The notes below the pieces were generated by a model, which was not told the origin of the DNA, ran no database searches, and saw only the letters and a program-made list of their open reading frames with translations. A DNA stretch of 40,196 nucleotides from a bacterium (GTDB lineage Bacteria; Patescibacteriota; Minisyncoccia; UBA6257; GWB1-50-10). The stretch covers positions 1 through 40,196 of the forward strand of contig DAIDBF010000008.1 of assembly GCA_027310235.1 (NCBI GenBank), in the 5' to 3' direction. A program made the translations under genes and the position numbers. Shown piece by piece: positions 791 through 27,140 of this stretch (position 1 is the stretch's first letter; every line of letters starts with the position of its first letter).

Positions 791-799
791 ATATGATGA

Positions 800-2038: not shown

Positions 2039-2044
2039 TTACCC

Positions 2045-2053: not shown

Positions 2054-2092
2054 CCAACTATAAATACCAATAACACCTCCCTAATAAATTCC

Positions 2093-2269
2093 TTCCCTTC
2101 CGAGTGAGAATAGCGAAACGAGGACACAAATACACGAGTAAGGACGAAGAACACAAGAAATTACGCACTGTCCGAGTCCCTTCAGGTCGAGTTTGCGTAA
2201 TTTCCGTGTGTTCGAGGACGAGCGAGTTGTATCTGTCCGAGTGAAGCTTTTTTCTCACGAGAGAGGGAA
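2093..2269 (-). repeat. structured repeat family F1, copy 1 (reverse orientation; starts 5 nt after the dnaJ stop)
   Basis: The outer arms ttcccttccgagtgaga (2093-2109) and tctcacgagagagggaa (2253-2269) are imperfectly complementary. The central 11-bp hairpin pairs 2157-2167 with 2194-2204. It encloses a 26-nt loop nearly identical to the loops at 11386-11411 and 25682-25707. Confidence 0.65.
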
Positions 2270-2274
2270 AGAAT

Positions 2275-3372
2275 TTATAGCTCCCCCTCCAACTCCTCCA
2301 AAAGTTTCTTTGCTTTTCCCGAAATATGCTTCGGAACGCGAAGATCGAAGGTAATGTAGAGATCGCCGCGGCCCGAGGATCCGAACTTCGGCATTCCGCG
2401 ATGCGGTATCTTCATCTTCTCCTGAAGCGAGAATCCGCGCGGAATCGCCACCGTGAACTTCTCTCCGCTTATGTCTCCAAGTTCCATTTCTTTCTCAAGA
2501 AGCACATCCTGAACTCGCACTTCTTTTATGAGGTACAGATCGGATTTTCTCCTCGTAAAATGCGGATGGGGTTTTACTCTGACTACGACATAACAATCGC
2601 CATTCCCCCCGCCACGTTCACCCGTTTCTCCCATGCCCGTCACCTTTATCACTTGTCCGTCCTCAACGCCGGGCGCGATCGAGAAGTGCACGACTCTTGC
2701 GCCGAACACCCGGCCCTTCCCTTTGCAGGAAGCACACGGCGCATTCGGAACCTTTCCCGATCCGAAGCAGTCGGGACATTGCTGGACTTGGGCGAACTGA
2801 CCGAAAAACGTCCTCCGTTCGACGCGTATCTCGCCGCGTCCGCCGCACTTCGTACAGTCCTTCTGGCCTTTTTCTTTCGCATACCCGAGCCCCTTGCACG
2901 TCTCGCAGAGCACGTTCGTCTTGAAACTCACTTCCCGCGTGATCCCGTGAAACGCCTCCTCAAGCGAGATGTCCTGCACGATCTCGACGTCTGCGCCCTG
3001 GGTATACGTGTGCCGCTTCCTTCCTCCTCCACCGAACTGCTCGAAGATGCTCTCAAAAATGTCGTTCATATCGACTCCTTCTCCCGCATTCCATCTGAAA
3101 CCGCTTCCCCCGAAATCTACCCCTTCAAACGGATTTCCTCCTCCCGGCATTCCTCCTCCCTCGAACACTCTTCCGAACTGATCGTACTGGGTCTTTTTTT
3201 CCTTATTGCCGAGCACCTGATATGCTTCGTTCACTTCTTTAAATTTCTTCTCGTCTCCCCCCTGCTTGTCCGGATGGTATTGGTGTGCCAGTTTCCGGTA
3301 TGCCTTTTTTATCTCATCTTCGGAGGCACCCTTCGAAACGCCGAGTACTTTGTAGTAATCTTTCGATTCCAT
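2275..3372 (-). CDS. dnaJ: molecular chaperone DnaJ
   Basis: It has a J domain with HPD ([12 protein letters not shown]), a Gly-rich linker and four CxxCxG zinc motifs ([32 protein letters not shown]). Confidence 0.95.
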
Positions 3373-3387
3373 AACGATTCTTGAAAA

Positions 3388-6316: not shown

Positions 6317-6350
6317 AGTTTTTGTAATAGTATTGCTGACCTTTTTTTTG

Positions 6351-6869
6351 TTATGATTCGCCTTTTATTTTTACCAGTACGACCCGCGCCGGACGCATTG
6401 TTTTTCCATGAAGCAGGTACCCTTTCGTTACCTCTTCCGCAATTGATCCCGGCGGCCCCTCCGCTTCGACCTCTCCAATCGCTTCCGCGATCTCCGGATT
6501 GAACGGATCACCCGGATGCATAGGTATCGCCTCCACTCCGTATCTTTTCATCGTATCGTAAAGCTGATTTCTCACGAGCGTCATCCCCTTCTTCGAAACG
6601 TCATCTTCGCGCATCGCGGAGAGACCAAGCTCGAAGCCATCGAGAATCACGATCAGATCGAAAAGGAGCGCTTCGTTGCTCCGCTTTGCGAAATATTCCA
6701 TCCGCTCCGCTTCCTCTTTCTTATAATTCGAGAGGTCCGCCTTCGCCCGCTTCCATCCATCGAGATATTCGTCCCGCAATCGTTCGGCTTCAAGAAGATC
6801 GGCACGCATCCCGGCGTCGCCTGGCTTTTGGATATTATTTTCTTCTTCTTTTTTTGTCTCCTCCTCCAT
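6351..6869 (-). CDS. grpE: nucleotide exchange factor GrpE
   Basis: 172 aa. It has a coiled-coil N-terminus and a GrpE C-terminal beta domain ([26 protein letters not shown]), and it sits between hrcA and dnaK. Confidence 0.9.
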
Positions 6870-6924
6870 ATTATTTAAATGTTACACTTGCTTCCGGTTG
6901 TTATCTTCTCATTTCTTAATTCTC

Positions 6925-7623
6925 TTATTCCAACGACTTTTCGAAAAACCTGAATGCCCGAATGGGTTTTGCATAATCCATCCGCTTCGGTCCGATTGCA
7001 AGCAGTAAAAAATCGCCGTCATCGCACTTTAGACAGGAGGCGACGACCGCGACGTGCGCGCTTTTGGTAAAGGGGCTCTTACCGATAAATACCCGGGGCC
7101 ACGAACGCTCTTCCTCCCACCAGGAACGGAGTTCCTGAACGCGCGAAGGGATGGATTCGAAGTCGTTCACGATCTGGATCATCTCGTTCGTAGTAATCGC
7201 ATCGTCCTGAAGACGGCTCAAAAGTTCATGAAGTCCGCTCTCATACACCTCGTCGCGCTCCGGTTCGTATCCCACGCTTAAACCCCCGAACCGTTCGGCA
7301 AGATCTTCCACGAACGTGCGTCGGGCTCCTTTTTTAAAATCATCGAGTACGTCTTCGAATCCGTGGGTACTCCGCGCTTCTTCTTCCTGAAGTGTCCGCT
7401 CGGTGAAAAAACGATAGGCCTTGTCCGAGGGTATTCTTCCGCCCGAAGGATGACGCTGGAAGAAGTATCCCGCCCCACTCAGCTCGTTAAGCTCCCAGCG
7501 TATCATCGCCGGCTTGATGCCGAAATCATATGCCTCGTAGAGGGACTCCGAGGTGACGGGCTTTCCCGTTTTCACGAACTCGCGGATTGCCGTCTCAAGA
7601 ATTGCCTGCGTCCGTTCCTGCAT
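6925..7623 (-). CDS. hrcA: heat-inducible transcription repressor HrcA (short form, 232 aa)
   Basis: It has an N-terminal winged-helix region (GKPVTSESL...KPAMIRWELNELSGAGYFFQRHPSGGRIPSDKAYRFF). It heads the grpE-dnaK-dnaJ cluster and has a CIRCE operator upstream. Confidence 0.8.
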   Translation of the reverse strand: MQERTQAILETAIREFVKTGKPVTSESLYEAYDFGIKPAMIRWELNELSGAGYFFQRHPSGGRIPSDKAYRFFTERTLQEEEARSTHGFEDVLDDFKKGARRTFVEDLAERFGGLSVGYEPERDEVYESGLHELLSRLQDDAITTNEMIQIVNDFESIPSRVQELRSWWEEERSWPRVFIGKSPFTKSAHVAVVASCLKCDDGDFLLLAIGPKRMDYAKPIRAFRFFEKSLE

Positions 7624-7631
7624 ATAGGTAC

Positions 7632-7661
7632 AGTATAGAAATTAGCACTCAAGCGTGTCAA
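7632..7661 (-). promoter_or_regulatory. sigma70-type promoter of the hrcA operon (TTGACA, 18-nt spacer, TATACT), 8 nt from the ATG
   Basis: The minus strand reads TTAGCACTTGACACGCTTGAGTGCTAATTTCTATACTGTACCTATATG. The -35 box lies inside the CIRCE spacer. Confidence 0.55.
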
Positions 7662-7668
7662 GTGCTAA
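7642..7668. promoter_or_regulatory. CIRCE operator (HrcA binding site)
   Basis: The sequence ttagcactc-aagcgtgtc-aagtgctaa matches the consensus TTAGCACTC-N9-GAGTGCTAA with one mismatch. Confidence 0.85.
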
Positions 7669-7673
7669 AGTGG

Positions 7674-7829
7674 TCATCAGGATTTCTTCTTGGTACTCCC
7701 GCACCGGGTGTCGGAATGCTCCAGCGGCATTCCGCACCCTACGCTCTCGGCTCGCGACCCGCCTTCCGGCGGGGCCAAGCTCGCTTCGCCTGCGAGAGTG
7801 GCGGTCATACCAAAAAGAAATCTTGATGA
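7674..7829 (-). repeat. structured repeat family F3, copy a (probably reverse orientation)
   Basis: The 22-nt outer arms tcatcaggatttcttcttggta (7674-7695) and taccaaaaagaaatcttgatga (7808-7829) pair at 20 of 22 positions. The GC-rich core contains cccgcc-ttcc-ggcggg and gagcttgg-like motifs resembling the cores at 8439-8613 and 11563-11736. Confidence 0.45.
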
Positions 7830-8422
7830 AATGGGAGTTCTCCTGTTCTATACTTTATGCATCGAGTATGAGAATGGTTTTATTGCTCCCCGGATGGCTG
7901 GAATCGCTCAAGATGTACGGGGGCGACGCCAATCTTGAGATTTGTATAGACGCGTTGGATGAACGCTCCGCCTCCGCCGATTACATTATCGGCGTAAGCT
8001 TGGGTGCTTTGGTTGCCCCCAAAAATATAAATCGTATATCGGGGAAAATAATCTTAGTCAATCCTCCCCTTCCAAAAAGAAGTATCTTTACTTGGTTCGT
8101 AAATTGGCTGCGATTTTTGATAACCGAAGGTTTACTTCCCGAAAGACAGAGGTTTACGAGAAACCCGATTATATTCATCGCTACCCTCGTGGATTGCATA
8201 AAACTCCTCACTACCGACTTTTCGAAAAGTTTCGACTAGCTTCCAAAAGAAAAACTAAAAGTAATCCGAGGGAAAAACGATCGGTTCTTTTGCGATCAAG
8301 ACGCGGTGAAATTTCTGAACGCAAAGAACATACCATGTATCGAGGTTAATGGAGGACACAACTGGTCCGAGGATATAGAAAAAACAATAGCCACCCTAAC
8401 GGACGTGAAAGAGAGTTCTTAG
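7826..8422 (+). pseudogene. alpha/beta-fold hydrolase (about 198 aa) interrupted by an in-frame TAG at 8237-8239
   Basis: The N-terminal half (7826-8236) carries the nucleophile elbow GVSLGA. The same frame continues after the TAG as LPKEKLKVIRGKNDRFFCDQDAVKFLNAKNIPCIEVNGGHNWSEDIEK... up to the stop at 8420-8422. That continuation supplies the Asp and His regions expected of the catalytic triad. Confidence 0.6.
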
Positions 8423-8438
8423 ACGAAGGAACTAACAG

Positions 8439-8613
8439 GCAATTATTATCCCTCGAGTGAACATTTGCCGGAGGGCGTCTGCACATTTCCGAGCGGTTTG
8501 CGCCGCCGAGCCAGGACCCCCGCCCTTAGGCGAGTCGGGTGGCGAGGAGCAACAAAGCGAGGTTGAATGTGCAACGCCAGGAGGTATTTGTGAACGAGAG
8601 GGATAATGATTGC
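8439..8613 (+). repeat. structured repeat family F3, copy b
   Basis: The outer 16-nt arms are gcaattattatccctc (8439-8454) and gagggataatgattgc (8598-8613). An inner helix pairs cgtctgcacatt with aatgtgcaacg. The conserved core is gccgagccagg...ggtggcgaggagc...aaagcgaggt. It lies between the convergent hydrolase and pilin genes, 3 nt from the pilin stop. Confidence 0.6.
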
Positions 8614-8616
8614 CCC

Positions 8617-9411
8617 TTACGGGCACGCGGCGGAACTCGTTGCAATCGCTCCCGCGTTCGTCAATGTCATTAGGAGACACGAACCGCTCGGCGTTACGAA
8701 GACAACTCCGTATGTGGATGCGGAGAAACCGATGTTTCCGTAGGACTTTAATACCGTCGCTCCCGCGACTCCCGTCCCGAAAGTAGTCAATCCGTTCACA
8801 TTTAATGTTCCGCTGAAATATCCGTTTCTCCACTGGTTTGTGGCTGTACCCAAATCAAGCGTACCATTCGAAGCGGGATAGACCGACGAGTCGAACTGCG
8901 CCGCGGAGACGCGCGCAACGGAGGTTTCCAAGGAACGCGTAAGCTGCGCCGCCGGATTCCCAGCATTGTAGCTCATCGAGAGATCAAGCTGCACGATCGC
9001 CGTTCCTCCTGGATTCTGATAGGGCGTCACGGTAAAACCGGTTACCGTCACGTTGGAGTCCGTAAGCGCGACGGGGTTCGATGATCCTTGCTGCAGATAC
9101 ACTGTCGTGCCGCTTAAATACATCAGCGTGGGATCATTCGTAGAAGTGGCCATACGAAGACGAAGTGTCGAGGTCGGCGTTCCAAAGGTCATATCTATCA
9201 AGCTTGAGTTTTGCACCATCTGCTTTAAGGTGTCTCCCACAAACCCTATCTGACGGTTTACTTCTCCTGTTGACCCCTGTCTTGTCTGAATTTTCGTGAT
9301 GGTGGTCAGAATCGCAACTAGAAAAATCGCGCTCACCGTGAAGATGGCGATATAAATAATAAGCTCAACGAGCGAAAAACCCTCCCGCCTGGAAACAAAC
9401 TTCTTTTGCAT
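8617..9411 (-). CDS. type IV pilin / pseudopilin-like protein with a prepilin N-terminal methylation motif
   Basis: MQKKFVSRREGFSLVELIIYIAIFTVSAIFLV is a class III signal peptide (G/FSLVE). The start at 9411 has the SD-like sequence AAGAGGG upstream. The ORF track start at 9444 is less likely. Confidence 0.7.
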   Translation of the reverse strand: MQKKFVSRREGFSLVELIIYIAIFTVSAIFLVAILTTITKIQTRQGSTGEVNRQIGFVGDTLKQMVQNSSLIDMTFGTPTSTLRLRMATSTNDPTLMYLSGTTVYLQQGSSNPVALTDSNVTVTGFTVTPYQNPGGTAIVQLDLSMSYNAGNPAAQLTRSLETSVARVSAAQFDSSVYPASNGTLDLGTATNQWRNGYFSGTLNVNGLTTFGTGVAGATVLKSYGNIGFSASTYGVVFVTPSGSCLLMTLTNAGAIATSSAACP

Positions 9412-9433
9412 ACGTTTTCCCTCTTTCTTGTAG

Positions 9434-9443
9434 TATAATACCA
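9434..9443. promoter_or_regulatory. overlapping divergent -10 boxes (plus TATAAT for the glycosyltransferase; minus TGGTATTAT for the pilin gene)
   Basis: The plus strand reads gtagTATAATaccacaaATG, only 7 nt to the ATG at 9447. The minus strand reads TGGTATTATACTACAAGAAAGAGGGAAAACGTATG. The -35 boxes are weak. Confidence 0.4.
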
Positions 9444-9446
9444 CAA

Positions 9447-11300
9447 ATGAGCTTCTTTCGTAATCACACGCTCTTTGCGCCCGTCGCCATTTTCGTCATC
9501 CTCATCCTCTCGGGTTCTCTTATGTGGCTTACGAGCGGCCAGGAATCGGCGATTATGGATGAACTCGCCCATATTCCCGCCGGATACGGATATGCACGGT
9601 TCCTCGATTATCGGCTGAATCCGGAGCATCCTCCCCTCCTCAAAGCACTCTCCGCCCTCCCTCTCCTTTCTCTTCCGCTCACTTTCCCGACAGGAAGCTC
9701 TCATTGGACAGACGACACGAACGGCCAGTGGGATGTGGGAACTCTCTTCTTTTATGGATCGGGGAACAACGCAGATCAGATCCTCGAATACGTGAGGATA
9801 TTTCCCATCCTCCTCACGCTCCTTACTATCGTCCTCGTATACGTCTGGGCGCGCGAACTTTTTGGGAACGAGTGGGCGCTTCTTCCTGCATTCCTTTTCG
9901 GACTTTCTCCCACTGTACTCGCGCACGGACATTACGTGACGACCGATATCGCGGCGACATTCGGTTTTCTGCTTGCTACCTATGCATTCGTACGATTTTT
10001 AAACTCCCCTTCGCGCAACCGTCTTATCTGGGCGGGAATCGCACTCGGCATCGCGGAGCTCGCGAAGTTTTCCGTCGCGCTCCTCATCCCTTCTTTCGTG
10101 CTCTTCGCGGCATGCTATGCGATCGGAGAAACAATCCGGAAAAAAAACTCCGGCAACCCGGGGCGGCTGTTCCGTTTTTTCATTTCCCGCGCATGCTTAC
10201 GGATCGGGCAGTTGATTCTTATCTTCCTCATCGCACTCGCCGTAATCTATGTCGTGTATTTCATCGTCACCCTGAACTACCCGGCAGAAAAACAGGTGGA
10301 AGATACAAAAGCCATACTTGCCTCTTTCAGTCCTGCGTGGGCGGGAAACTTCGTGACGCAACTCGCGGGACTCGAGATTACCAGACCGATTGCGCAATAT
10401 TTTCTGGGCATCGCCATGGTGCTCCAGCGCTCAAGCGGCGGGAACACGGCATACTTCCTCGGCCACGTTTCGTCAGGCGGATGGTGGTACTACTTCCCCG
10501 TCGTCTTTCTCCTTAAGGAACCAATCCCTTCACTCATTCTCATCTTTATCGCACTTCTCACGGGACTCGCGGTACTCTTCGCGAAATCGCCCTTCGGAAT
10601 GAAACGAATGCGGCGCCTCGGGGAATATCTCGGAATCCACTTCGGCGAGTTCGTCATGATCCTTACCGTTCTGCTCTACTGGCTCTACAGCATTCGCTCG
10701 CCCTTGAATATCGGGATACGACATCTTCTCCCGACGCTTCCTTTCCTTTACATTCTCGCCACCGTCGGCATACAGCGCTTGCTTCGCGGAGACGTGAAGA
10801 AACGTCTTTGGAAAATCGCAGGTGTTGTCATTCTTGCATCTTGGTATCTCGGAGAAACAGTCGCGGCGTACCCTTATTTTCTCTCTTATTTCAACGAAAT
10901 CGGAGGAGGAACGGCGCAGGGATATCGGTATGTTACCGATTCGAATTACGACTGGGGACAGGATATGAAACGGCTTGCCGCATTCGTGAAGGAGCATAAT
11001 ATTCAAAAAATAGCCGTTGATTACTTCGGCGGCGGGGATCCGAAATATTATCTGGGCGACGATACCGTCGAACAGTGGAAATCGAGCAAAGGTGATCCGC
11101 GCATCGACGGAATCGAGTGGCTTGCGGTGTCGGTAAACACGCTCGAGAACGCAATTGCACCTACCGAGAACGGTTTTACGAGAAACACGAAAGACAGCTA
11201 TGAGTGGCTCACTTCGCTCCGCCCCCCCAAAGAAGGCATGGGGCAGGTTCCCGAGCCCGACTACCGGGTGGGGACCTCGATTTTTGTGTATCACCTCTAG
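9447..11300 (+). CDS. GT-C fold membrane glycosyltransferase (ArnT / PMT / family 39-like)
   Basis: 617 aa with many TM segments. It has the first-loop motif AIMDELAHIPAGYGY and a large C-terminal soluble domain. Confidence 0.65.
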   Translation: MSFFRNHTLFAPVAIFVILILSGSLMWLTSGQESAIMDELAHIPAGYGYARFLDYRLNPEHPPLLKALSALPLLSLPLTFPTGSSHWTDDTNGQWDVGTLFFYGSGNNADQILEYVRIFPILLTLLTIVLVYVWARELFGNEWALLPAFLFGLSPTVLAHGHYVTTDIAATFGFLLATYAFVRFLNSPSRNRLIWAGIALGIAELAKFSVALLIPSFVLFAACYAIGETIRKKNSGNPGRLFRFFISRACLRIGQLILIFLIALAVIYVVYFIVTLNYPAEKQVEDTKAILASFSPAWAGNFVTQLAGLEITRPIAQYFLGIAMVLQRSSGGNTAYFLGHVSSGGWWYYFPVVFLLKEPIPSLILIFIALLTGLAVLFAKSPFGMKRMRRLGEYLGIHFGEFVMILTVLLYWLYSIRSPLNIGIRHLLPTLPFLYILATVGIQRLLRGDVKKRLWKIAGVVILASWYLGETVAAYPYFLSYFNEIGGGTAQGYRYVTDSNYDWGQDMKRLAAFVKEHNIQKIAVDYFGGGDPKYYLGDDTVEQWKSSKGDPRIDGIEWLAVSVNTLENAIAPTENGFTRNTKDSYEWLTSLRPPKEGMGQVPEPDYRVGTSIFVYHL

Positions 11301-11495
11301 CGATACTCCTCCTGTCTTTCGCGAGCAGAAACACTTCCTCGCAAAAATCCTGCTCGTTCATCCTCGGAGATCCGAAAATTGCACAAACTCGACCTTATGG
11401 GACTCGAACAGTGTGCAATTTTTGATTTCCTTCGTCTTCACTCGCGGATTTTTGAACTCGTTCGTGTATGCTCACTCAAGACAGGAGGAGTATCG
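11301..11495 (+). repeat. structured repeat family F1, copy 2 (starts at the base after the glycosyltransferase stop)
   Basis: A perfect 17-bp outer helix pairs cgatactcctcctgtct (11301-11317) with agacaggaggagtatcg (11479-11495). The central 11-bp hairpin pairs 11375-11385 with 11412-11422 around the conserved loop aactcgaccttatgggactcgaacag. Confidence 0.7.
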
Positions 11496-11562
11496 CTGTC
11501 GTCCATATCTAGAAAATCTCGTTTTGAAAAAAAAGAGAGTTTATTTAGGACACAAGAACAAA

Positions 11563-11736
11563 GCGATCATCATTCCTCAAGAGAACATCGGTCGGAGAGC
11601 GTGAAAAAAATCCCCGAGCAACTCGCGTCGCCGAGCCAGGCCCCTCGCCCATAGGGCGTGCAGGGTGGCGAGGAGCGATAAAGCGAGGTGGATTTTCACG
11701 CTTGGAGACCCTGTGAACGAGAGGAATAATGATCGC
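11563..11736 (+). repeat. structured repeat family F3, copy c (tandem with F1 copy 2)
   Basis: The outer 16-nt arms are gcgatcatcattcctc and gaggaataatgatcgc. An inner 10-bp helix pairs agcgtgaaaa with ttttcacgct. The core gccgagccaggcccctcgccc-atag-ggcg...ggtggcgaggagcgataaagcgaggtgg is homologous to copy b. Confidence 0.6.
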
Positions 11737-11759
11737 TTATAACAAGAAAATAAGACGGG

Positions 11760-12569
11760 CTATTGGTAATATATCCTGTTCGGGATTTGGAGATCCACGG
11801 TCTTCACCTTCGAAAAATTAAGCTTACCCGACAGACTTCTTAAGATTGAGTTCAGATTCTCCGGCACGAAATCAAGAGCGAAGAGAAACGTCGGTCCCTG
11901 CGCGATCTCCGCAGACCACGCACGGAGCGAGCTATCCTCAAGAGTCACTCGAAGAGGAACAAATCCTTCGTTTTTAAGCGTTCGTAAGGTTGAAAACATA
12001 TTGTGAATCCATGAGCGGTTCGGAAAAAACGGCATCCCAAGAAGAGGCGTCCGCCGGTTCGTATCGCGAATCGTAAGAATGAGCGTCCCTTCGGCACTCG
12101 GCGCGGGAGCATACAGAACTCCCTCTTCGTCCATCAGAAAACATCCCGTCTCCGATGCTCCGCAGAGAATGCCGTATGGCGTTCGCGGTTCGACGATAAT
12201 ATCCACCTCTCTGGAGAAAAAATGAGGGGTAACCGTGATGCTTTTCAAATCAGGATACCGCTCCAGCTGCTTCGGCACTGAACCGAGCTCCCAGAAGAGA
12301 ATGTTGTTCGGCCCGAGCCATCCGCGCCACGGCACCGTGAGCATGCGGATCGAAAGCGCCGACGTGAGCTCTTCCTTGGACAACTGCGTCGATCCCTCGA
12401 GTCTAAAATCACTCACCTTGAACCACGAGAAATGGAGTATGAAGTACGCGCACCCGATAAGAAGCATAACGAGGAGCGCGATGCCGATAATCCAGTACCA
12501 CAGCGCGCGATGCGCCCGCCTCTGGCGCACCGCCGGATAATTCGATTCGTATCCTTTTTTCTGAAACAT
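11760..12569 (-). CDS. ftsQ: FtsQ-like cell division protein (single TM plus a POTRA-like domain)
   Basis: 269 aa. It has an N-terminal TM segment (WYWIIGIALLVMLLIGCAYFIL) followed by VSDFRLEGSTQLSKEELTSAL. Confidence 0.5.
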   Translation of the reverse strand: MFQKKGYESNYPAVRQRRAHRALWYWIIGIALLVMLLIGCAYFILHFSWFKVSDFRLEGSTQLSKEELTSALSIRMLTVPWRGWLGPNNILFWELGSVPKQLERYPDLKSITVTPHFFSREVDIIVEPRTPYGILCGASETGCFLMDEEGVLYAPAPSAEGTLILTIRDTNRRTPLLGMPFFPNRSWIHNMFSTLRTLKNEGFVPLRVTLEDSSLRAWSAEIAQGPTFLFALDFVPENLNSILRSLSGKLNFSKVKTVDLQIPNRIYYQ

Positions 12570-12578
12570 AAGCGTGAT

Positions 12579-13208
12579 TTACTGGTACACCCTCACAGGA
12601 AATGAGTACGTATTCGTTGTAGTATTCCCTCCGACCTCCATTTGTATAGTGTAGTCCCCTTCTTTGTCCCACGCGTGATTGATAACCGTAACTTCATTCT
12701 TCACGACTGTGCCGTTGTCCGCGGCCGCTCCGTCGCCCCAATCGACCCGATAGGAACTCCCGCTATTGATCGAAAAACTCAAGGGCACCGAAACTTTTGT
12801 CATAATCGTCGCCGGCGGAGGAGGAATATAAAAAGACGAGCTCGTGGGCTGAGAGATCGTCCCGCTCGTAAAAAGAGGCGCTGCTTGCAGATACGTGTTA
12901 TTCACCGTTACGGGAGAAGTTCCCTGAAGACCCGCGCCGGCATTCTGAATCGCTTCTCCCGCGCCCGAGAGCAACTTTCCCACCGTATCCCCGAGAAACG
13001 TCTTTATATTTGAGAACGTGCCACTCGCGACGTTCGTGCCGATTTCTTTTGCCTTGGATTCCGCGGCACTCCCGATGTTTTTCGAGGTCGTCTCGACGAA
13101 TTTTCCCGCATCCCCCGTTCCCCACCAGTTGTTATAGGAGTACCACGCGCCGTAACCGAGGAGCCCGAGAATAACGATCCATAAAAAAACTTTGAAAATC
13201 AACTTCAT
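12579..13208 (-). CDS. membrane-anchored protein with a C-terminal PKD-like domain
   Basis: 209 aa. It has an N-terminal TM segment. The C-terminus YRVDWGDGAAADNGTVVKNEVTVINHAWDKEGDYTIQMEV resembles the PKD WDFGDG...H.Y...G.Y pattern. Confidence 0.5.
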   Translation of the reverse strand: MKLIFKVFLWIVILGLLGYGAWYSYNNWWGTGDAGKFVETTSKNIGSAAESKAKEIGTNVASGTFSNIKTFLGDTVGKLLSGAGEAIQNAGAGLQGTSPVTVNNTYLQAAPLFTSGTISQPTSSSFYIPPPPATIMTKVSVPLSFSINSGSSYRVDWGDGAAADNGTVVKNEVTVINHAWDKEGDYTIQMEVGGNTTTNTYSFPVRVYQ

Positions 13209-13216
13209 TTTCTCTC

Positions 13217-13225
13217 ATTATACCA
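13217..13225 (-). promoter_or_regulatory. extended -10 promoter (TGGTATAAT), 8 nt from the ATG of the PKD-domain gene
   Basis: The minus strand reads GTTGTTTGGTATAATGAGAGAAAATG. Confidence 0.5.
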
Positions 13226-13277
13226 AACAACGAGAACGCATTCCCTGCGAACCTCTATCTGCAAAAGGAGGAAGCGT

Positions 13278-14531
13278 TTATCCTTTGATTTCTTTCTTCC
13301 CGATGTAATCCTGAATCACCTCCGGGATTTTGATGGTCCCCTCTTTGGTCTGGTAGTTTTCGAGAAGCGAAAGAAGAGGACGCTGCGAGAATGCCGTCGC
13401 ATTTAAGGTGTGTACAAACTCTTTTTTCCCGTCTTTCGTCTTGTACTTCACATTGATGCCGCGCGACTGGAAGTCGGTGGTGTTGGAGCAGGAATGCGTC
13501 TCGCGGTATCGTTCCTCGCTCGGGAACCACGCTTCGATATCGAACTGCCGCGCGTCTGTCCATCCCATGTCGCCGGTGCAAATTTCAACCACGCGATACG
13601 GAATCTCAAGCGCCTGCATGAGCTTCTCCTGAAGCGAGAGCAAAAACAGATGTTCCTCCCCCGATTGTTCCGGATGTACGAACGAGTACATCTCCACCTT
13701 GTCGAATTGATGCACTCTGAAGATTCCTTTCGTGTCTTTTCCGTACGATCCCGCTTCCCTTCTGAAACACGTCGAGAACCCGACGTAGCGCCGCGGGAGA
13801 TTCTGTTCTTCGAATGTTTCGTTCAGGTGATAGGGGCCCATCGTGTGCTCGGCGCTCCCAATAAGATACAGTTCATCCTTCGGGAAGTAATACCGTTCTT
13901 CTTTCTGATCTGCCGCGAGGCGTCCCATGCCCGCATAGACATCCGGTTTAATCATGACCGGAGGCAATATCGGAGTGAACCCTTCTTTGGTTAATATATC
14001 GAACGCGAGCCGCACGATAGCGAGCTCGAGAAGCGCCATATCCCCCACGAGATATCCGAAACGGCTTCCCGAGACCTCCGATGCTTTTTTCACATTGATG
14101 ATGCCGAGTCCTTCCGCAAGCGAGAGATAATCCTTGGGAACGAAATCGAATTCCGGTTTTTTTCCCACTTCGCGGAGCGTTTTGTTTTCGGTTTCGTCCT
14201 TTCCCACTGGCACGTCGGGAAAGGGAATATTCGGCAAGCGGTTCAACAGTTCTTTCCGCTTCGTCTCGGCGGTGGCGCACTCCGCCTCAAGTTCCGAGAT
14301 ACGCTGTTTTAAAAGCTGCGCGCGGCCTATCAGGTCCTCTTTCTGTTCCTTGGCGAGTTCCTTGCTTAGTGCATTCTGCTCCGCCTTAAGTTCATCGATC
14401 GCCTTTACCTTTCCGCGCCACGCAGTATCAAGCTGAAGAAACTTATCGACGAGCTTCTTGTCGATTTTTTTCTTCTCTACTCCTTCTTTTACCGCATCCG
14501 GATTCTCTCGGATGAAATTTACGTCTAGCAT
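13278..14531 (-). CDS. serS: seryl-tRNA synthetase
   Basis: 417 aa. It has an N-terminal coiled-coil arm and class II motifs (FRREAGSYGKDTKGIFRVHQF, TLNATAFSQRPL). Confidence 0.95.
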   Translation of the reverse strand: MLDVNFIRENPDAVKEGVEKKKIDKKLVDKFLQLDTAWRGKVKAIDELKAEQNALSKELAKEQKEDLIGRAQLLKQRISELEAECATAETKRKELLNRLPNIPFPDVPVGKDETENKTLREVGKKPEFDFVPKDYLSLAEGLGIINVKKASEVSGSRFGYLVGDMALLELAIVRLAFDILTKEGFTPILPPVMIKPDVYAGMGRLAADQKEERYYFPKDELYLIGSAEHTMGPYHLNETFEEQNLPRRYVGFSTCFRREAGSYGKDTKGIFRVHQFDKVEMYSFVHPEQSGEEHLFLLSLQEKLMQALEIPYRVVEICTGDMGWTDARQFDIEAWFPSEERYRETHSCSNTTDFQSRGINVKYKTKDGKKEFVHTLNATAFSQRPLLSLLENYQTKEGTIKIPEVIQDYIGKKEIKG

Positions 14532-14738
14532 ATGCCAATTTATCTTATTTTTCGAGCCATAACATTATGGCGATGAAAAATAAGCCATAATATTGAGCAC
14601 CCCCCACCTTTTCCTTCCCGGATGAGGGTTCGTGTTCGACGATTGCGTTGTTTTTGAATGATGTTCATAATGCTTGGTTTGTTATTCAAAAGGTGGGGGT
14701 AAGGTTTTGTCGATCGCACAAGGTGCGATACAAAGCCC
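14532..14738. repeat. structured repeat family F2, copy A (fills the lysS stop to serS ATG gap exactly)
   Basis: The helices are P1 aatttat/ataatatt, P2 cttattttt/aaaaataag, P3 cccccacctttt/aaaaggtggggg and P4 atcgcac/gtgcgat. The conserved linkers are gagcacc, ggtaaggttttgt and acaaagccc. Confidence 0.7.
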
Positions 14739-16184
14739 TTATTGTTCTTCTTTCATTAACGGGAAAAAGACCGCCTCCCGCATGGGCTTATCCATAATAA
14801 CCGCAAAAAGACGCTCCGAGACGCCGAATCCCGCAGCGGGCGGCATCCCATACTCGAGCGCTTCCAAAAAATCTTCATCCAGCATCTGGGCTTCATTATC
14901 TCCCGCGGCGCGAAGCGCCATTTGCTCTTCGAATCTTCCGCGCTGATCCTCCGGATCGTTCAACTCGGAAAACCCTTTTCCGAGCTCCGTCCCTAATGCA
15001 ACGATCTGAAAACGCTCTACGCGATCCGGTTTACCGGGAACGCGTTTTGCAAGCGGCTCGATTGCTACGGGGGGATTTATAAGAAAACAGGGCTCCGTTA
15101 AATTCGGACGGACGGTTTTTTTATAGATAAGATCAATAAGCCGTCCTTTCCCGGAATTCGGTTCGAATGGGATGCCGAGTTTCCGTGCGTGCGCTTCCAA
15201 TACTTCACGCGAAACCGTTGTGAGATCGAGTGCATTGTATTTTTTGAAAACTTCGTAGTAGTCCACTTTCTTCCATTGTTTTCCCCAGTTCACCTTTTTT
15301 CCGCTATGGACCATGAGAAGCGAACCGCACGTTTTTTTGATCGTCGCCTTGAACATCTTCTCCATGAGACGCATCATATCGTCATAATCCGCATACGCCC
15401 AGTAGCACTCCATCTGCGTATAATCCTGCAGATGCTCTCGATCAATTCCTTCGTTCCTGAATATTCTTCCTATCTCGAAGACCTTCTCAAAACCCGCAAC
15501 GAGCATCTTTTTCAGAGGAAGTTCGAGAGAAATACGAAGATAAAAATCCCTGTCCAGTGCATTATGATGGGTTGCGAAAGGTTCCGCTTCCGCCCCTCCC
15601 GGTACCGGCTCCAAAACGGGTGTCTCGACTTCCAAAAAGTTCTCCTGTTTCAAAAATGTACGGATAGTCCCCCAAAACACGCTTTTCTTTTTCATGAGTT
15701 CCAAAACCTCATGATTCATGATCCCGTCGAGATACCGTTTCCTCAAACGCGTTTCGATGTCTTCAAGCCCGTACCACGAATCCGGGAGAGGGCGAAGACT
15801 CTTCGTGATTATCCTCGCATTTTTGGCAACCACGCTTTTCTCGCCGCGCTTCGTTGTTATCACTCCGCCGGCAACCTCGAGGAAATCCCCCTTGTCAAGC
15901 GTTTCCTTAAGAAGCGTGAATTCTTTCGTCTCTCCCTTCTTTAAAAGCACCTGTAGTTTCCCGCTCGCATCCTCGAGATCAAGGAATATGATACCTCCTT
16001 GATCCCGCATTCCAATCACGCGCCCCGTGAGCCACACCTTTTTCTTTCCGCGGACGAACGCCGAAAATCGCGTAAGCACTTCCGCGATATGCGCCGTTCT
16101 TTTCACCTGTATCGGATATGGATCCGCCACTTCCCGATACCGTGAAAGTTTTTTACGTCGTTCTTCGATAAAATCTTCCAACAT
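14739..16184 (-). CDS. lysS: lysyl-tRNA synthetase, class II
   Basis: 481 aa. It has an OB anticodon-binding domain and a class II core (FRNEGIDREHLQDYTQMECYWAY, GMPPAAGFGVSERL). Confidence 0.95.
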   Translation of the reverse strand: MLEDFIEERRKKLSRYREVADPYPIQVKRTAHIAEVLTRFSAFVRGKKKVWLTGRVIGMRDQGGIIFLDLEDASGKLQVLLKKGETKEFTLLKETLDKGDFLEVAGGVITTKRGEKSVVAKNARIITKSLRPLPDSWYGLEDIETRLRKRYLDGIMNHEVLELMKKKSVFWGTIRTFLKQENFLEVETPVLEPVPGGAEAEPFATHHNALDRDFYLRISLELPLKKMLVAGFEKVFEIGRIFRNEGIDREHLQDYTQMECYWAYADYDDMMRLMEKMFKATIKKTCGSLLMVHSGKKVNWGKQWKKVDYYEVFKKYNALDLTTVSREVLEAHARKLGIPFEPNSGKGRLIDLIYKKTVRPNLTEPCFLINPPVAIEPLAKRVPGKPDRVERFQIVALGTELGKGFSELNDPEDQRGRFEEQMALRAAGDNEAQMLDEDFLEALEYGMPPAAGFGVSERLFAVIMDKPMREAVFFPLMKEEQ

Positions 16185-19380: not shown

Positions 19381-19386
19381 AGTCCG

Positions 19387-22543: not shown

Positions 22544-22559
22544 ATAAGAAGGAATAAAA

Positions 22560-25549: not shown

Positions 25550-25594
25550 CTCATCTTTTCCCTCCGGTCCCATACCTTCATTGTACTACAGTAA

Positions 25595-25792
25595 GAGGAA
25601 TCTCTCCCACTCCCTCACGAGCAGAAACGTTCGCTCGCAGGAATTCACCTCGTTCGTCCTTGCACCCGCGGCAATTATGCAAACTCGACCTTATGGGACT
25701 CGGACAGTGCATAATTGCTCGTGTGCGTCGTCCTCACTCGGGAATTCCTCAACTCTCTCACGTATGCTCGTGAAGGAGGAAAGAGATTCCTC
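25595..25792 (+). repeat. structured repeat family F1, copy 3
   Basis: An outer 11-bp helix pairs gaggaatctct (25595-25605) with agagattcctc (25782-25792). A further helix pairs tcacgagca with tgctcgtga. The central 11-bp hairpin pairs 25671-25681 with 25708-25718 around the loop aactcgaccttatgggactcggacag. Confidence 0.7.
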
Positions 25793-25825
25793 TCGAAATT
25801 TCCACCAAATCCAACAAAAAATTTC

Positions 25826-26094
25826 TCTCCTTCTCGATGGACGAGCACCGCGTTCCTCCGAACGATGTTCATTCCTCCGTCCCCAACAAAAACCACCAGA
25901 GTTTTTCCCCTTTTCCGAGCACGCCTTATGGAGCGAGTATAAGAACTTTTGCCCGAGCCGACGCAGGAAATAGGAGGCACGCACTGTCCGAATCCCGAAG
26001 CGAAGCGGAGGTTGAGTTGCGCGCTCCCGTTCATTTCCCAGGATGCGAGGCAAGGAGTTCTGCGAGCGGAATACTGCGTGCGAGGGGAAGGAGA
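25826..26094 (+). repeat. possible degenerate F3-like element in tandem with F1 copy 3
   Basis: The interrupted outer arms are tctccttc-tcg and cga-ggg-gaaggaga. The internal motifs ccgagca, gcccgagcc and aagcggaggttga resemble the F3 core. Similarity is weak. Confidence 0.3.
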
Positions 26095-26099
26095 AAAAC

Positions 26100-27140
26100 T
26101 CACTTCCAAAACCTCGTGATGTCCTGCACCGTCACCAAAACCATAAGCACAAGAAGTGCCGCAAACCCAATACCATTCACCGCAAGTTCAATCTTCCTCG
26201 GAACAGGGCTTCCTTTTATTTTTTCGATGAGAAGGAAAAGAATGCGTCCCCCATCGAGCGCGGGAAATGGAATTAAGTTAATAACGACGAGATTGACGGA
26301 AATCAAAGCGAGAAGCTGCAAAAAATATACAAACCCGAGCGCGGTCGCCTGGCTCGCCAAGAACACAATACCGACCGGACCCGCAACTTCCTTAAGTATG
26401 CCCGGCGTAGTGAAAATACCGACGATGAGACGGAATAAGCTTACCGCGATAAGCACGAGTGCTCCCCACGCTTCCTTCAGTCCCGTAAGAAGCGCCTGAA
26501 AAAACGGCTGAGAATCAAACCCGACCTCTGCCAAGCCCACTCCGAGCGCCCCTTCCCCTATGGGAGGGTTTTCTCTCTTCTCCATTGAAAACGTATATGA
26601 TTCGGTGCCTCGAAGCACGGTGAGCGTAACCTCGGAAGTTAAACTTGCCTTTACGCCGTTAATAAACGCCGTCGCGTCGATAGGATCCGCCAAGCGCATA
26701 CCTCCAATGGATGCTTCGGTGATAATGTCTCCGCTCTGTGCTCCCGCAGTCGCGGCGGGCGAATTACTCGAAACATCGGCGATCGCAAGATGCCTCGGGG
26801 CGCCCACCATGAATACAATCGAAAACAAAAGCCATCCGATCACGAAGTTCATACATACCCCCGCAATAAGCACCGGAAGACGTTTCCGGAACGGTTGGTT
26901 TTGGAATCCATCTTTCGACTTCGTCTCCCCTTCCTCTCCGAAAAGCTTCACGAACCCTCCGAATGGAATGAGATTGACACTATAAAGCGTTTTCCCTATT
27001 TTCTTCCCGAAAAGGCGCGGGGGAAATCCAAAGCCGAACTCCTCGACTCTCATTTTAAAGAGCTTCGCAAAAAGAAAATGCCCCGCTTCATGCACGAACA
27101 CAAGAAGCGCGAGTCCCGCAATTACGAGTATGATTGTCAT
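26100..27140 (-). CDS. rseP: RIP metalloprotease RseP (site-2 protease, M50 family, with a PDZ domain)
   Basis: 346 aa. It has the HExxH motif (VHEAGHFLFAK), a PDZ-like middle region and the C-terminal NLIPFPALDGG motif. Confidence 0.88.
   Translation of the reverse strand: MTIILVIAGLALLVFVHEAGHFLFAKLFKMRVEEFGFGFPPRLFGKKIGKTLYSVNLIPFGGFVKLFGEEGETKSKDGFQNQPFRKRLPVLIAGVCMNFVIGWLLFSIVFMVGAPRHLAIADVSSNSPAATAGAQSGDIITEASIGGMRLADPIDATAFINGVKASLTSEVTLTVLRGTESYTFSMEKRENPPIGEGALGVGLAEVGFDSQPFFQALLTGLKEAWGALVLIAVSLFRLIVGIFTTPGILKEVAGPVGIVFLASQATALGFVYFLQLLALISVNLVVINLIPFPALDGGRILFLLIEKIKGSPVPRKIELAVNGIGFAALLVLMVLVTVQDITRFWK

What the first reader, a model, noticed from the sequence alone, without database searches (positions are those of the whole stretch)
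11301..11495. Family F1: a structured element of about 195 nt with an invariant 26-nt loop on a fully covarying 11-bp stem, present in three copies
**Copies and central hairpin**
- Copies lie at 2093-2269 (reverse orientation), 11301-11495 and 25595-25792.
- The central hairpin arms are aaaattgcaca/tgtgcaatttt, gcaattatgca/tgcataattgc and gaaattacgca/tgcgtaatttc. Every arm difference is compensated on the partner arm.
- The enclosed 26-nt loop, aactcgacc-ttat-gggactcg[ag]acag, is almost invariant. Only the apical ttat versus gaag-type bases and one purine change.

**Other conserved parts**
- All copies have a long outer helix that closes the element. It is a perfect 17 bp in copy 2.
- They share the internal boxes gagcagaaac and gtatgctc.
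- They share a secondary helix: aaaaatcc/ggattttt in copy 2 and aggaattc/gaattcct in copy 3.

**Context**
- Copies 1 and 2 lie in sense orientation 5 nt and 0 nt after the stop codon of the last gene of an operon (dnaJ and the glycosyltransferase).
- Copy 3 is antisense to its neighbours.

A strictly conserved loop on a covarying stem is the pattern expected for a ligand, protein or RNA recognition site. It is not the pattern of a simple terminator.
Basis: seen in the sequence. Interest (0 to 1): 0.72.

Follow-up and report, generated by a model that had tools for sequence, protein, structure and literature searches.

The report
Rod-hairpin intergenic repeat family with conserved cap
The finding is real: it is one branch of a family of about 200-base hairpin-forming repeats that sit just after genes in a tiny uncultivated (Patescibacteria) genome. 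Their tip carries a short motif that also caps long hairpin repeats in unrelated Proteobacteria, and no database or paper searched here describes that motif.

Summary
**Observation.** The three copies, the covarying stems and the near-invariant 26-nt "loop" are confirmed.

**Extensions**
- The window holds six members of one scaffold family, not three. They carry interchangeable tips: A-type at 2083-2278 (-), 11299-11497 (+) and 25594-25793 (+); B-type at 25898-26101 (-); C-type at 11560-11738 (-) and 8436-8615 (-).
- Fifty unique relatives were found in related Patescibacteria contigs. On 44 aligned copies, 91.5% of cells pair and 53 of 60 pairs show compensatory change.
- Paralogues are old (85% identity or less). 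Orthologues are 85-95% identical, yet some orthologous sites lack the element.
- Elements usually start within a few bases of the stop codon of the upstream same-strand gene (30 of 40). They have no U-tract. Neighbouring elements are always convergent (9 of 9).
- The "loop" is an asymmetric internal loop plus a mini-hairpin: AACUC(R)ACC...GGGA(Y)UCGNACAG. It also caps unrelated long hairpins in Gallionellaceae and in other contigs whose genes score as proteobacterial.
- There is no Rfam, plasmid, phage or E. coli match.
- One such hairpin in Ferrigenium carries an IS110 insertion. The hairpin is the target there, not a bridge RNA.

**Verdict.** This is a new REP/BIME/ERIC-like structured repeat superfamily, most likely acting as a co-transcribed 3'-end RNA element with a factor-binding cap. 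The mechanism is inferred, not shown.

The parts
11299..11497 (+). F1 copy 2 (A-type cap), the copy named in the finding. It is a 199-nt rod hairpin that starts on the AG of the TAG stop of the PMT_2 glycosyltransferase gene.
   Evidence: MFE -87.1 kcal/mol, z = -10.3. Covariance model score 210.7 bits forward against 25.6 bits reverse.
11299..11318 (+). Outer stem P1, 5' arm. It pairs with 11478-11497 as a perfect 20 bp and overlaps the stop codon at 11298-11300.
   Evidence: (I4).
11478..11497 (+). Outer stem P1, 3' arm. It is purine-rich and contains GGAGGAG.
11352..11365 (+). 5' side of the large internal loop (GCTCGTTCATCCTC). It is pyrimidine-rich and conserved across copies as CCTCGCTCGTCCTCG.
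   Evidence: Alignment consensus. Unpaired columns are 67% pyrimidine.
11431..11445 (+). 3' side of the large internal loop (CTTCGTCTTCACTCG). It repeats TCGTC(C/T)TC in direct orientation, not inverted.
11374..11385 (+). Central stem, 5' arm. It pairs with 11412-11423. This is helix 8 of the family model, and all 11 of its pairs show compensatory change.
   Evidence: helix 8: 94.5% of cells paired. G-U 25 against A-C 6.
11386..11411 (+). Cap motif AACTCGACC-TTAT-GGGACTCGAACAG. It is an asymmetric internal loop (AACUC / UCGNACA) around a mini-helix (G6:C5', A/GA, CC:GG) closed by a tetraloop.
   Evidence: Covariation G:C 67, A:U 34, G:U 1, A:C 0 in 102 unique caps. The same motif sits on unrelated hairpins.
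2083..2278 (-). F1 copy 1 (A-type cap). It lies between dnaJ (stop codon inside the outer stem) and xseA.
   Evidence: An orthologous copy in MAG FK3.bin18 (L013) is 89% identical and shows compensatory changes.
25594..25793 (+). F1 copy 3 (A-type cap). It is antisense to ddl and rseP and forms a convergent doublet with the next element.
25898..26101 (-). Family member with a B-type cap (AACTCAACCT-CCGCTTCGCTTC-GGGATTCGGACAG). It starts at the rseP stop codon.
   Evidence: Covariance model 92.2 bits, E = 2.5e-19. Orthologues lie after rseP in L002 and L037 at 85-86% identity.
11560..11738 (-). Family member with a C-type centre (..GCTCCTCGCCACCC-hairpin-GGGGCCTGGCTCGGCGACGC..). It lies 21 nt after the stop of gene 11760-12569 and is the convergent partner of copy 2.
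   Evidence: Covariance model 52.6 bits, E = 2e-10. Fold -84.8 kcal/mol.
8436..8615 (-). Second C-type member. It starts 1 nt after the stop of the prepilin-like gene 8617-9444.
   Evidence: Covariance model 41.1 bits, E = 8e-8. Fold shown. It accounts for the direct repeats D14 and D16.

Best explanation
F1 is one subfamily (A-cap) of a superfamily of ~200-nt imperfect-palindrome repeats in a Patescibacteria (Jorgensenbacteria-like) genome. It is comparable in kind to REP/BIME, ERIC and Correia elements.

**Shown**
- Each copy folds as one rod-like hairpin of about 8 helices.
- The helix sequences drift but stay paired through compensatory changes.
- The pyrimidine-rich internal loops and the apical cap (AACUC-R-ACC...GGGA-Y-UCGNACAG) stay constant.
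- Copies are old, are conserved at orthologous sites, and are occasionally gained, lost or exchanged.
- They sit preferentially right after the stop codon of the upstream gene in the sense orientation, or as convergent doublets.

**Inferred mechanism**
- The element is transcribed as the 3' end of the upstream gene's mRNA.
- The long hairpin acts as a U-tract-independent 3'-end barrier or processing site. It protects the upstream message and insulates neighbouring transcription units, as REP, ERIC and phage T7 RNase III sites do.
- The cap and the CU-rich loops dock a trans-acting factor, a protein or possibly an RNA. Because the same cap tops unrelated hairpins in Proteobacteria, that factor is either widely conserved or horizontally spread.
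- How new copies arise is unknown.
For: **Structure**
- On 16 copies, 46 of 60 predicted pairs show compensatory changes.
- On 44 copies, 91.5% of cells are paired against 68% in shuffles and 51% or less in slid controls. 53 of 60 pairs change on both sides, and the covariation score is 0.64 against 0.21.
- Among close (84-98% identical) pairs from different loci, mostly orthologues, there are 53 compensated double changes against 10 double changes that break a pair.

**Strand asymmetry and sense orientation**
- The covariance model scores 210.7 bits forward against 25.6 reverse.
- The upstream gene is on the same strand for 30 of 40 elements (p = 0.002). 25 of those start -7 to +29 nt from the stop codon.
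- The upstream gene is on the same strand for 41 of 58 of the other cap-bearing hairpins (gap of 9 nt or more, mostly high-GC) and 71 of 98 overall, p = 1e-5.
- G-U greatly exceeds A-C in the helix that closes the cap and in the central stem, 25 against 6.
- Pyrimidine-pyrimidine mismatches number 142 and 90, against 3 and 11 purine-purine mismatches.

**Not recently amplified**
- Paralogues within a genome are at most 85% identical (median 68%). The best matches are orthologues in other genomes at 85-95%. That is at least as conserved as the flanking coding DNA at 78-86%.
- No transposase or other recurrent neighbour was found. Neighbours are dnaJ, trmD, SMC, rseP and similar genes.

**Not a canonical terminator**
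- There is no U-tract.

**Cap conserved across distant hosts**
- Patescibacteria, Gallionellaceae, and contigs whose genes match Proteobacteria-specific NCBIfam models, in loci with GC of 0.43-0.72.
Against: - No transcript data were available, so RNA-level function is inferred.
- The wobble test over the whole structure is not RNA-like. In consensus stems A-C mismatches (108) outnumber G-U (73). The reverse strand has the lower predicted energy in 49 of 50 copies. This fits a DNA palindrome, or use on both strands, as well as it fits an RNA.
- Some features are those of mobile or selfish DNA: presence/absence and type differences at orthologous sites, mosaic caps, a scaffold-only copy and a copy with an insertion in the cap.
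- About a quarter of copies are not downstream of a same-strand gene. One conserved doublet lies between divergent genes.
- Compensatory changes in a DNA palindrome can also come from template-switch (quasi-palindrome) correction rather than from selection on RNA.
- Gene calls behind the orientation statistics are crude longest-ORF calls.
Confidence: 0.5

Rival explanations
1. Selfish, non-autonomous mobile DNA of the REPIN or MITE type. The hairpin and cap would be needed in single-stranded DNA for recognition by a trans-acting, probably single-copy, transposase or recombinase encoded elsewhere in the genome. The position after stop codons would simply be where insertions are tolerated.
For: - The elements are multicopy and dispersed.
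- Orthologous intergenic sites can be empty, or filled by a different type.
- Caps are mosaic; there is an internal-deletion copy (L032 7167-7283) and a copy with an insertion in the cap (L023 3092-3404).
- Doublets are obligatorily convergent, 9 of 9, as in REPINs (PMC3116915 read).
- A-C mismatches are not depleted.
- An IS110-family element sits inside a capped hairpin in Ferrigenium, as IS110/IS1111 elements do with REPs.
- The same cap in distant phyla could reflect a horizontally moving enzyme.
Against: - No near-identical paralogues: none above 85% identity among 156 within-genome pairs.
- Element ends are the least conserved part. There are no conserved terminal inverted repeats, no target-site duplications and no GTAG box.
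- No transposase was seen in about 0.76 Mb of flanks.
- Orientation is tied to the upstream gene, with stop-codon adjacency tighter than tolerance alone predicts. The median distance is about 3 nt upstream, against typically tens to hundreds of nt to the next downstream gene.
- Orthologous copies are conserved at least as well as coding DNA.
Confidence: 0.25
2. DNA-level architectural sites. The double-stranded or cruciform form would bind nucleoid or topology proteins, as BIMEs bind IHF and gyrase, and the conserved boxes would be protein-binding sites on duplex DNA.
For: - The conserved boxes are short repeated words (CTCG, GCTCCGC, TCGTCCTC) present on both arms in direct orientation.
- Both G-U-type and A-C-type mismatches are tolerated.
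- Elements lie at operon boundaries.
Against: - Duplex binding sites give no reason for about 60 base pairs of compensatory evolution.
- The strong strand asymmetry and the gene-linked orientation are not explained.
Confidence: 0.1
3. Independent trans-acting small RNA genes, or a ligand-sensing RNA. Each copy would be a discrete ~200-nt RNA whose cap or CU-rich, anti-Shine-Dalgarno-like loops bind a ligand, a protein or target mRNAs.
For: - Conserved single-stranded segments sit on covarying stems.
- The loops contain CCUC/UCCUC words complementary to GGAGG-type ribosome-binding sites.
- Position at gene 3' ends fits 3'-UTR-derived sRNAs.
Against: - There are tens of diverged copies per small genome, with interchangeable caps.
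- Copies are lost at orthologous sites.
- There is no promoter or terminator signature.
- There is no association with any gene function.
Confidence: 0.1
4. IS110-family bridge RNA, or an orphan derivative of one. This was suggested because a capped hairpin lies just upstream of an IS110 recombinase gene in Ferrigenium straubiae.
For: In L110 the repeat unit that contains the recombinase gene also contains a hairpin capped by AACTC-GCGCTTCGCGC-TCAAACAG.
Against: - Six copies of the same IS in different contexts share sequence only from CTTGTATCTT onward, about 207 nt before the ATG. The capped hairpin is flanking target DNA.
- No IS110 recombinase homologue is present in the window or in any of the loci that carry the cap motif; the only tblastn hits are the two copies in L110, the query's own locus.
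Confidence: 0.02

Closest known systems
REP / BIME elements and REPINs (Enterobacteria, Pseudomonas; REPIN-RAYT systems, PMC3116915)
   Same: - Extragenic, multicopy, hairpin-forming repeats.
- Compensatory changes keep the hairpin (PMC3116915).
- Often directly 3' of stop codons and co-transcribed (my knowledge of the REP literature).
- Occur as inverted doublets and as mosaics of several motifs.
- Persist for long periods.
- Are targets of IS110/IS1111 insertion (references within PMC11208160; seen here).
   Different: - REPs are 20-40 nt and REPINs about 100 nt; these are about 200 nt with about 8 helices.
- In REPINs the conserved parts are the two ends and the spacer varies. Here the ends vary, and the apex and internal loops are conserved.
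- No GTAG box and no RAYT gene were seen.
- The same apical motif occurs in different phyla, whereas REP sequences are lineage-specific.
ERIC/IRU (Enterobacteria, Vibrio) and Correia/NEMIS (Neisseria) elements
   Same: - Imperfect palindromes of 100-160 nt in transcribed intergenic regions.
- They fold in mRNA and change mRNA stability or are processed by RNase III or RNase E (my knowledge, not tested here).
- Copies are old and conserved between species.
   Different: - No sequence similarity: no blastn match in 5,426 E. coli genomes.
- Correia elements have conserved terminal inverted repeats and a TA duplication; these do not.
- The modular caps and the cross-phylum motif have no counterpart.
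MITEs (miniature inverted-repeat transposable elements)
   Same: Small, ORF-less, palindromic and dispersed, with presence/absence polymorphism.
   Different: - No conserved terminal inverted repeats.
- No target-site duplication.
- No recent near-identical copies.
- No related autonomous element found.
Phage T7-type RNase III processing hairpins / 3'-end stabiliser hairpins
   Same: Irregular long hairpins with internal loops placed between cistrons, which leave a protective 3' stem (my knowledge). This is the proposed mode of action.
   Different: Those are single-copy, phage-encoded and much shorter. Cleavage is not tested here.
IS110 bridge RNA
   Same: A structured RNA hairpin with large internal loops, physically next to an IS110 recombinase in one locus.
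   Different: Tested and not the same thing: the capped hairpin is the insertion target, not part of the IS.

Membership tests
Any Rfam 15 family | Score at or above the family's gathering threshold. | tested here: not met
   - 0 hits in the whole window.
- 0 hits in 20 cap-bearing loci.
- Permissive searches gave only generic long-hairpin miRNA models far below threshold.
REP / REPIN-RAYT | Extragenic, multicopy, hairpin-forming, with compensatory changes in the stem. | tested here: met
REP / REPIN-RAYT | Two highly conserved REP ends (invariant about 16-mers, GTAG box) in inverted orientation around a less conserved spacer. | tested here: not met
   The outer stems are the most variable part; invariant columns lie in the cap and internal loops. 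The definition is taken from PMC3116915.
REP / REPIN-RAYT | A cognate RAYT (Y1 transposase) gene, itself flanked by the repeats. | not testable with these tools
   - Only window-sized fragments of the genomes were available.
- No recurrent neighbour gene was found in about 0.76 Mb of flanks.
- A direct Y1-transposase profile scan of whole genomes was not possible.
MITE | Conserved terminal inverted repeats shared by copies, plus a target-site duplication. | tested here: not met
   - Terminal stems differ between copies and only covary.
- Flanks of the three window copies show no direct duplication.
Intrinsic (Rho-independent) terminator | A GC-rich hairpin followed immediately by a U-tract. 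| tested here: not met
   On average 4 of the 12 nt after the outer stem are T. Only 6 of 49 copies have 7 or more.
IS110-family bridge RNA | Encoded inside the non-coding end of an IS110/IS1111 element next to a DEDD recombinase gene. | tested here: not met
   - The IS boundary lies 3' of the capped hairpin.
- No recombinase homologue in the window or in any cap-bearing locus; the only tblastn hits are in L110 itself.
tRNA / tmRNA-derived element | A cloverleaf or tRNA-like domain detectable by ARAGORN. | tested here: not met
   - 0 genes in the window.
- Only an 11-13-nt complementarity of the cap's 3' half to the T-arm consensus.
ERIC/IRU | Sequence similarity to the enterobacterial 127-bp consensus. 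| tested here: not met
   No blastn match in E. coli complete genomes.
Integron attC site | R''/R' core sites (RYYYAAC / GTTRRRY) at the base of the hairpin, in a cassette array beside an integron integrase. | not tested
   By eye there are no GTTRRRY ends, and neighbours are housekeeping genes. No formal attC model was run.

The most novel reading that the evidence does not exclude
The cap, 5'-AACUC(R)ACC-[hairpin]-GGGA(Y)UCG(R)ACAG-3', may be a previously undescribed cross-phylum recognition module that marks long 3'-UTR hairpins for a dedicated factor.

- It is found in Patescibacteria, in Gallionellaceae, and in contigs whose genes match Proteobacteria-specific NCBIfam models.
- The factor would be a nuclease, an RNA-binding protein or a mobilising enzyme.
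- Alternatively the cap could pair with the tRNA T-arm: its 3' half is the exact complement of GUUCGA(G/A)UCCC.
- Under this reading the elements would define a new class of bacterial 3'-end or hairpin-repeat system rather than another lineage-specific REP.
- Their density, about 3% of a roughly 1-Mb streamlined genome, would then reflect host function.
Probability: 0.25. Interest if true: 0.8.

Novelty: new variant of a known kind. Interest (0 to 1): 0.62.

Why it matters
- Patescibacteria (CPR) genomes are extremely reduced. Spending about 3% of this window on 200-nt structured repeats argues that the repeats do something. In this window no gene end is followed by an obvious canonical intrinsic terminator (judged by eye from the hit list of a scan of 1-20000; the second half was not scanned).
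- The family gives a large natural set of covarying sequences, which defines a testable RNA or ssDNA structure.
- Its 22-nt cap, identical in unrelated bacteria, is a concrete handle for pull-downs or phyletic profiling to find the unknown partner.
- If that partner is a 3'-end processing or termination factor, it would bear on how these uncultivated bacteria end and stabilise transcripts. If it is a mobilising enzyme, it would define a new REPIN-like system.

Tried and rejected
1. **Known RNA family.** Rfam gathering and permissive scans found nothing.
2. **tRNA-like element.** ARAGORN found none.
3. **Plasmid, phage or E. coli relatives.** No blastn matches and no match in viral contigs.
4. 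**Intrinsic terminator.** No U-tract.
5. **Classical MITE.** No conserved terminal repeats, no target duplication, no recent copies.
6. **Associated protein.** All-against-all BLAST of flanking ORFs found no recurrent neighbour except spurious ORFs inside the elements. Pfam of candidates gave trmD, SMC, ABC and SDR proteins.
7. **IS110 bridge RNA.** This looked promising. It was rejected by aligning six IS copies: the capped hairpin is flanking target DNA.
8. **UCGA/UCGA mini-helix inside the cap.** RNAalifold predicted it, but 14 uncompensated A-C cells contradict it. It is replaced by the G6:C5' pair.
9. **Strand assignment by wobble counting.** The result is mixed. It is forward-like near the cap and in the central stem, reverse-like in helix 2 and in total energy.
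10. **Exact insertion boundaries.** Filled and empty orthologous sites could not be compared base by base, because the intergenic DNA is unalignable between the available genomes.
11. **Literature.** Searches for the MAG and contig accessions and for similar repeats found nothing relevant.
Full report
**1.

- The pattern AACTCGACCNNNNGGGACTCGRACAG occurs three times in the window, at 2168-2193 (-), 11386-11411 (+) and 25682-25707 (+). This is so even with three mismatches allowed, and none are expected in shuffled sequence.
- The surrounding ~195-200 nt align at 79% mean column identity.
- Each copy folds into a single rod-like hairpin: -87.1, -85.4 and -67.8 kcal/mol, with z-scores of -10.3, -6.6 and -5.4.
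- The outer helix of copy 2 is a perfect 20 bp (I4).
- dnaJ (2275-3372, -) and a PMT_2-family glycosyltransferase (9447-11300, +) end at or inside the outer stems of copies 1 and 2. Copy 3 lies antisense between rseP and ddl.
- One minor correction: the boxes GAGCAGAAAC and GTATGCTC are exact only in copies 2 and 3.

**2.

- A scan of species-representative genomes with the loop pattern found 13 more copies in three MAGs labelled only "bacterium". All fold the same way.
- RNAalifold on the 16 copies predicts 60 pairs, 46 of them with compensatory changes.
- A covariance model built from them (R1) found further members that share the outer scaffold but carry different apical modules:
  - B-type: AACTCAACCT-CCGCTTCGCTTC-GGGATTCGKACAG.
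  - C-type: an unrelated GC-rich centre.
  - D-type: AACUC-hairpin-UCAAACA.
  - One copy with a ~100-nt insertion in the cap (L023 3092-3404).
  - One scaffold-only 117-nt copy (L032 7167-7283).
- With filters off, the window has exactly six members: the three A-type copies, a B-type at 25888-26111 (-), and C-types at 11550-11748 (-) and 8426-8625 (-).
- Together they occupy about 1.15 kb, or 2.9% of the window.
- Across the window and related contigs I collected 50 unique members.

**3. Structure and evolution**

- On 44 model-aligned copies, 91.5% of cells form standard pairs, against 68% in shuffles and 51% or less in slid controls. 53 of 60 pairs change on both sides, and the covariation score is 0.64 against 0.21. 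The alignment was fitted to the model, which favours the structure, but the margin is large.
- The MAFFT-based result is independent of that fitting.
- Among pairs of copies 84-98% identical from different loci (mostly orthologues), there are 53 compensated double changes against 10 double changes that break a pair. By my estimate chance double hits would give only a few restored pairs.
- Unpaired columns are 67% pyrimidine. They carry the conserved words CCTCGCTCGTCCTCG, CTTCGTCCTCACTCG and GCTCCGC on both arms in direct orientation.
- Paralogues within one genome are at most 85% identical (median 68%). The best match of most copies is a copy in another genome at 85-95%, often at the syntenic position: after dnaJ in the window and L013, and after rseP in the window, L002 and L037.
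- The copies are therefore old and individually conserved, at least as well as the flanking coding DNA at 78-86%.
- Turnover still happens:
  - The site orthologous to window 11296-11761 is a 114-nt spacer without elements in FK3.bin18 (L009). In Ga0082335 (L026) it holds a single B-type element.
  - L002 has an A-type copy where the window has none, and lacks the one next to rseP.
  - L026 lacks the dnaJ copy.

**4. Position and orientation**

- I used crude longest-ORF gene calls. The upstream neighbour is on the same strand for 30 of 40 elements (p = 0.002). In 25 of those the outer stem starts -7 to +29 nt from the stop codon, often overlapping it.
- The distance to the next downstream gene is typically tens to hundreds of nt.
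- Elements closer than 200 nt to each other are convergent in 9 of 9 cases. That includes doublets lying between tandem or even divergent genes, which explains most of the "antisense" copies such as copy 3.
- There is no U-tract after the outer stem, so these are not intrinsic terminators.
- No transposase or other recurrent gene accompanies them.

**5. The "loop" is a conserved cap shared across phyla**

- A metagenome scan with a pattern that allows an insertion found 94 stretches. There were none in viral contigs.
- Besides relatives of the window, the same motif caps long (200-300 nt), often near-perfect hairpins of unrelated sequence in loci with GC of 0.43-0.72.
- In 102 unique caps, position 6 and position 5' are G:C 67 times, A:U 34 times, G:U once and A:C never. 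This replaces the UCGA/UCGA mini-helix that RNAalifold proposed, which 14 uncompensated cells contradict.
- The cap is thus an asymmetric internal loop (AACUC / UCGNACA) around a short helix with an A/GA mismatch.
- Host assignment:
  - The window's SerS has its best named relatives in Jorgensenbacteria, Minisyncoccia, Paceibacterota and "Patescibacteria group".
  - The largest high-GC group is Gallionellaceae; SecA is 87-90% identical to Gallionella and Ferrigenium.
  - Others carry genes that score above the curated cut-offs of Proteobacteria-specific NCBIfam models: pepN_proteo, acnB and the proteobacterial dedicated-sortase histidine kinase.
- The sense-orientation bias holds for these hairpins too: 41 of 58, and 71 of 98 overall (p = 1e-5).

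**6. Which strand, RNA or DNA?**

- For the forward strand as the folding species:
  - The covariance model scores 210.7 bits forward against 25.6 bits reverse.
  - Orientation is tied to the upstream gene.
  - G-U greatly exceeds A-C in the helix that closes the cap and in the central stem, 25 against 6.
  - Pyrimidine-pyrimidine mismatches vastly outnumber purine-purine ones.
- Against a clean RNA signature:
  - Over all consensus stems, A-C (108) exceeds G-U (73).
  - The reverse complement folds about 12 kcal/mol better in 49 of 50 copies. This is probably because its loops are purine-rich.
- I conclude that a folded single strand matters and that the sense strand is favoured. RNA against ssDNA is not settled.

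**7. A lead that failed: bridge RNA**

- In Candidatus Ferrigenium straubiae (L110), a hairpin capped by AACTC-GCGCTTCGCGC-TCAAACAG lies upstream of an IS110-family recombinase gene, inside a 1441-nt inverted duplication. It is homologous to the Gallionellaceae elements. That suggested a bridge RNA (architecture read in PMC11208160).
- Aligning six copies of this IS from different contexts shows that the IS begins at CTTGTATCTT, about 207 nt before the ATG. Everything upstream differs.
- The capped hairpin is therefore the insertion target, as REPs are for IS110/IS1111 elements.
- The recombinase has no homologue in the window or in any cap-bearing locus; the only tblastn hits are the two copies in L110 itself.
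- The Gallionellaceae elements are themselves mosaics of several small hairpins plus the capped one, much like BIMEs.

**8. Interpretation**

- The best-supported reading is a new REP/BIME/ERIC-like superfamily of structured intergenic repeats.
- In the window's host they most likely act in cis, as part of the upstream gene's transcript. They would form a U-tract-independent 3'-end barrier or processing hairpin whose cap and CU-rich loops bind a trans-acting factor.
- The steps from "sense-oriented after stop codons" to "3'-end function", and from "conserved cap" to "factor binding", are inferences.
- The main rival is selfish ssDNA-mobilised repeats of the REPIN type. It is supported by turnover, mosaicism, doublets and the IS110 hit. 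It is weakened by the absence of recent copies, of conserved ends and of any transposase.
- The two readings are not exclusive; REP, ERIC and Correia elements are both.

**9. Novelty**

- Nothing in Rfam 15, PLSDB plasmids, INPHARED phages, E. coli genomes or the searchable literature matched.
- The kind of element is known. What has no counterpart that I know of, or that I found in the databases and literature searched here:
  - about 200 nt and roughly eight helices;
  - conservation at the apex and internal loops instead of at the ends;
  - interchangeable caps;
  - a high density in a streamlined Patescibacteria genome;
  - a 22-nt cap shared with Proteobacteria.
- I rate it a new variant of a known kind, with interest 0.62.

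Noticed in passing
window 14565-14754, 16182-16398, 16871-17069, 36418-36634: A second, unrelated family of structured intergenic repeats (D1 and D3-D6). The copies at 16182-16387 and 36418-36623 are 96% identical, and units contain hairpins such as TTATGGCG..GCCATAA and GGTAAGGTTTTGT..GCGATACAAAGCCCTTA. They lie next to lysS, mrdA and other genes and are not hit by the F1 model.
   Followed up: no
window 11398-11411, and all caps in L001-L108: The 3' half of the cap, GGGA(C/U)UCG(R)AC, is the exact complement of the commonest tRNA T-arm sequence GU(U)CGA(G/A)UCCC (positions 53-63). The variable position is A or G in 95 of 102 caps, so it would pair with U55. Five tRNAs in related loci have GGTTCGAGTCC- or GGTTCGAATCC-like T-arms. 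Whether this is chance or functional is unknown.
   Followed up: partly
L110 14542-18206 (Candidatus Ferrigenium straubiae CP194331.1): Two inverted, 99%-identical copies of an IS110-family element flank a MUG113-domain gene. Each is inserted about 30 nt 3' of the cap of a long hairpin repeat. This may be a composite element and is an example of an IS110 element targeting these hairpins.
   Followed up: partly
window 35081-35132: A perfect 24-bp palindrome with a 4-nt spacer (TGAGTTTACACTAAGTTATTTAGC/GCTAAATAACTTAGTGTAAACTCA) in the 191-nt intergenic region upstream of gene 33740-35023 (I8).
   Followed up: no
window 29750-29819 and 39067-39136: A 70-nt inverted repeat, 90% complementary, with arms 9.2 kb apart (I3).
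   Followed up: no
window 22559-22589 and 24428-24458: The same short hairpin motif (AATCTATCGAGGCCGGGCCTC..ATAATATTG, 94% identical) follows two consecutive genes. It may be a small terminator-like repeat (D19).
   Followed up: no
window 3388-4452 (-): A 354-aa ORF with no Pfam or NCBIfam match lies between dnaK and dnaJ in the hrcA-grpE-dnaK-dnaJ cluster. It is conserved in L014 and L026.
   Followed up: no
L013 275-5007: Relative to the window, MAG FK3.bin18 has about 4.7 kb of extra DNA between the dnaJ-linked element and xseA.
   Followed up: no
L023 3092-3404 and L032 7167-7283: Two derivatives of the family. One has a ~100-nt structured insertion inside the 3' half of the cap. The other is a 117-nt scaffold-only copy that lacks the central stems and cap.
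   Followed up: partly
whole window: The window comes from a Patescibacteria (CPR) genome. GC is about 0.50, GC skew is negative throughout, and almost all genes are on the minus strand. In 1-20000 the terminator-like hits of the scan appear, by eye, to lie mostly inside genes rather than after them, so canonical hairpin-plus-U-tract terminators are not evident at gene ends there; 20001-40196 was not scanned.
   Followed up: partly
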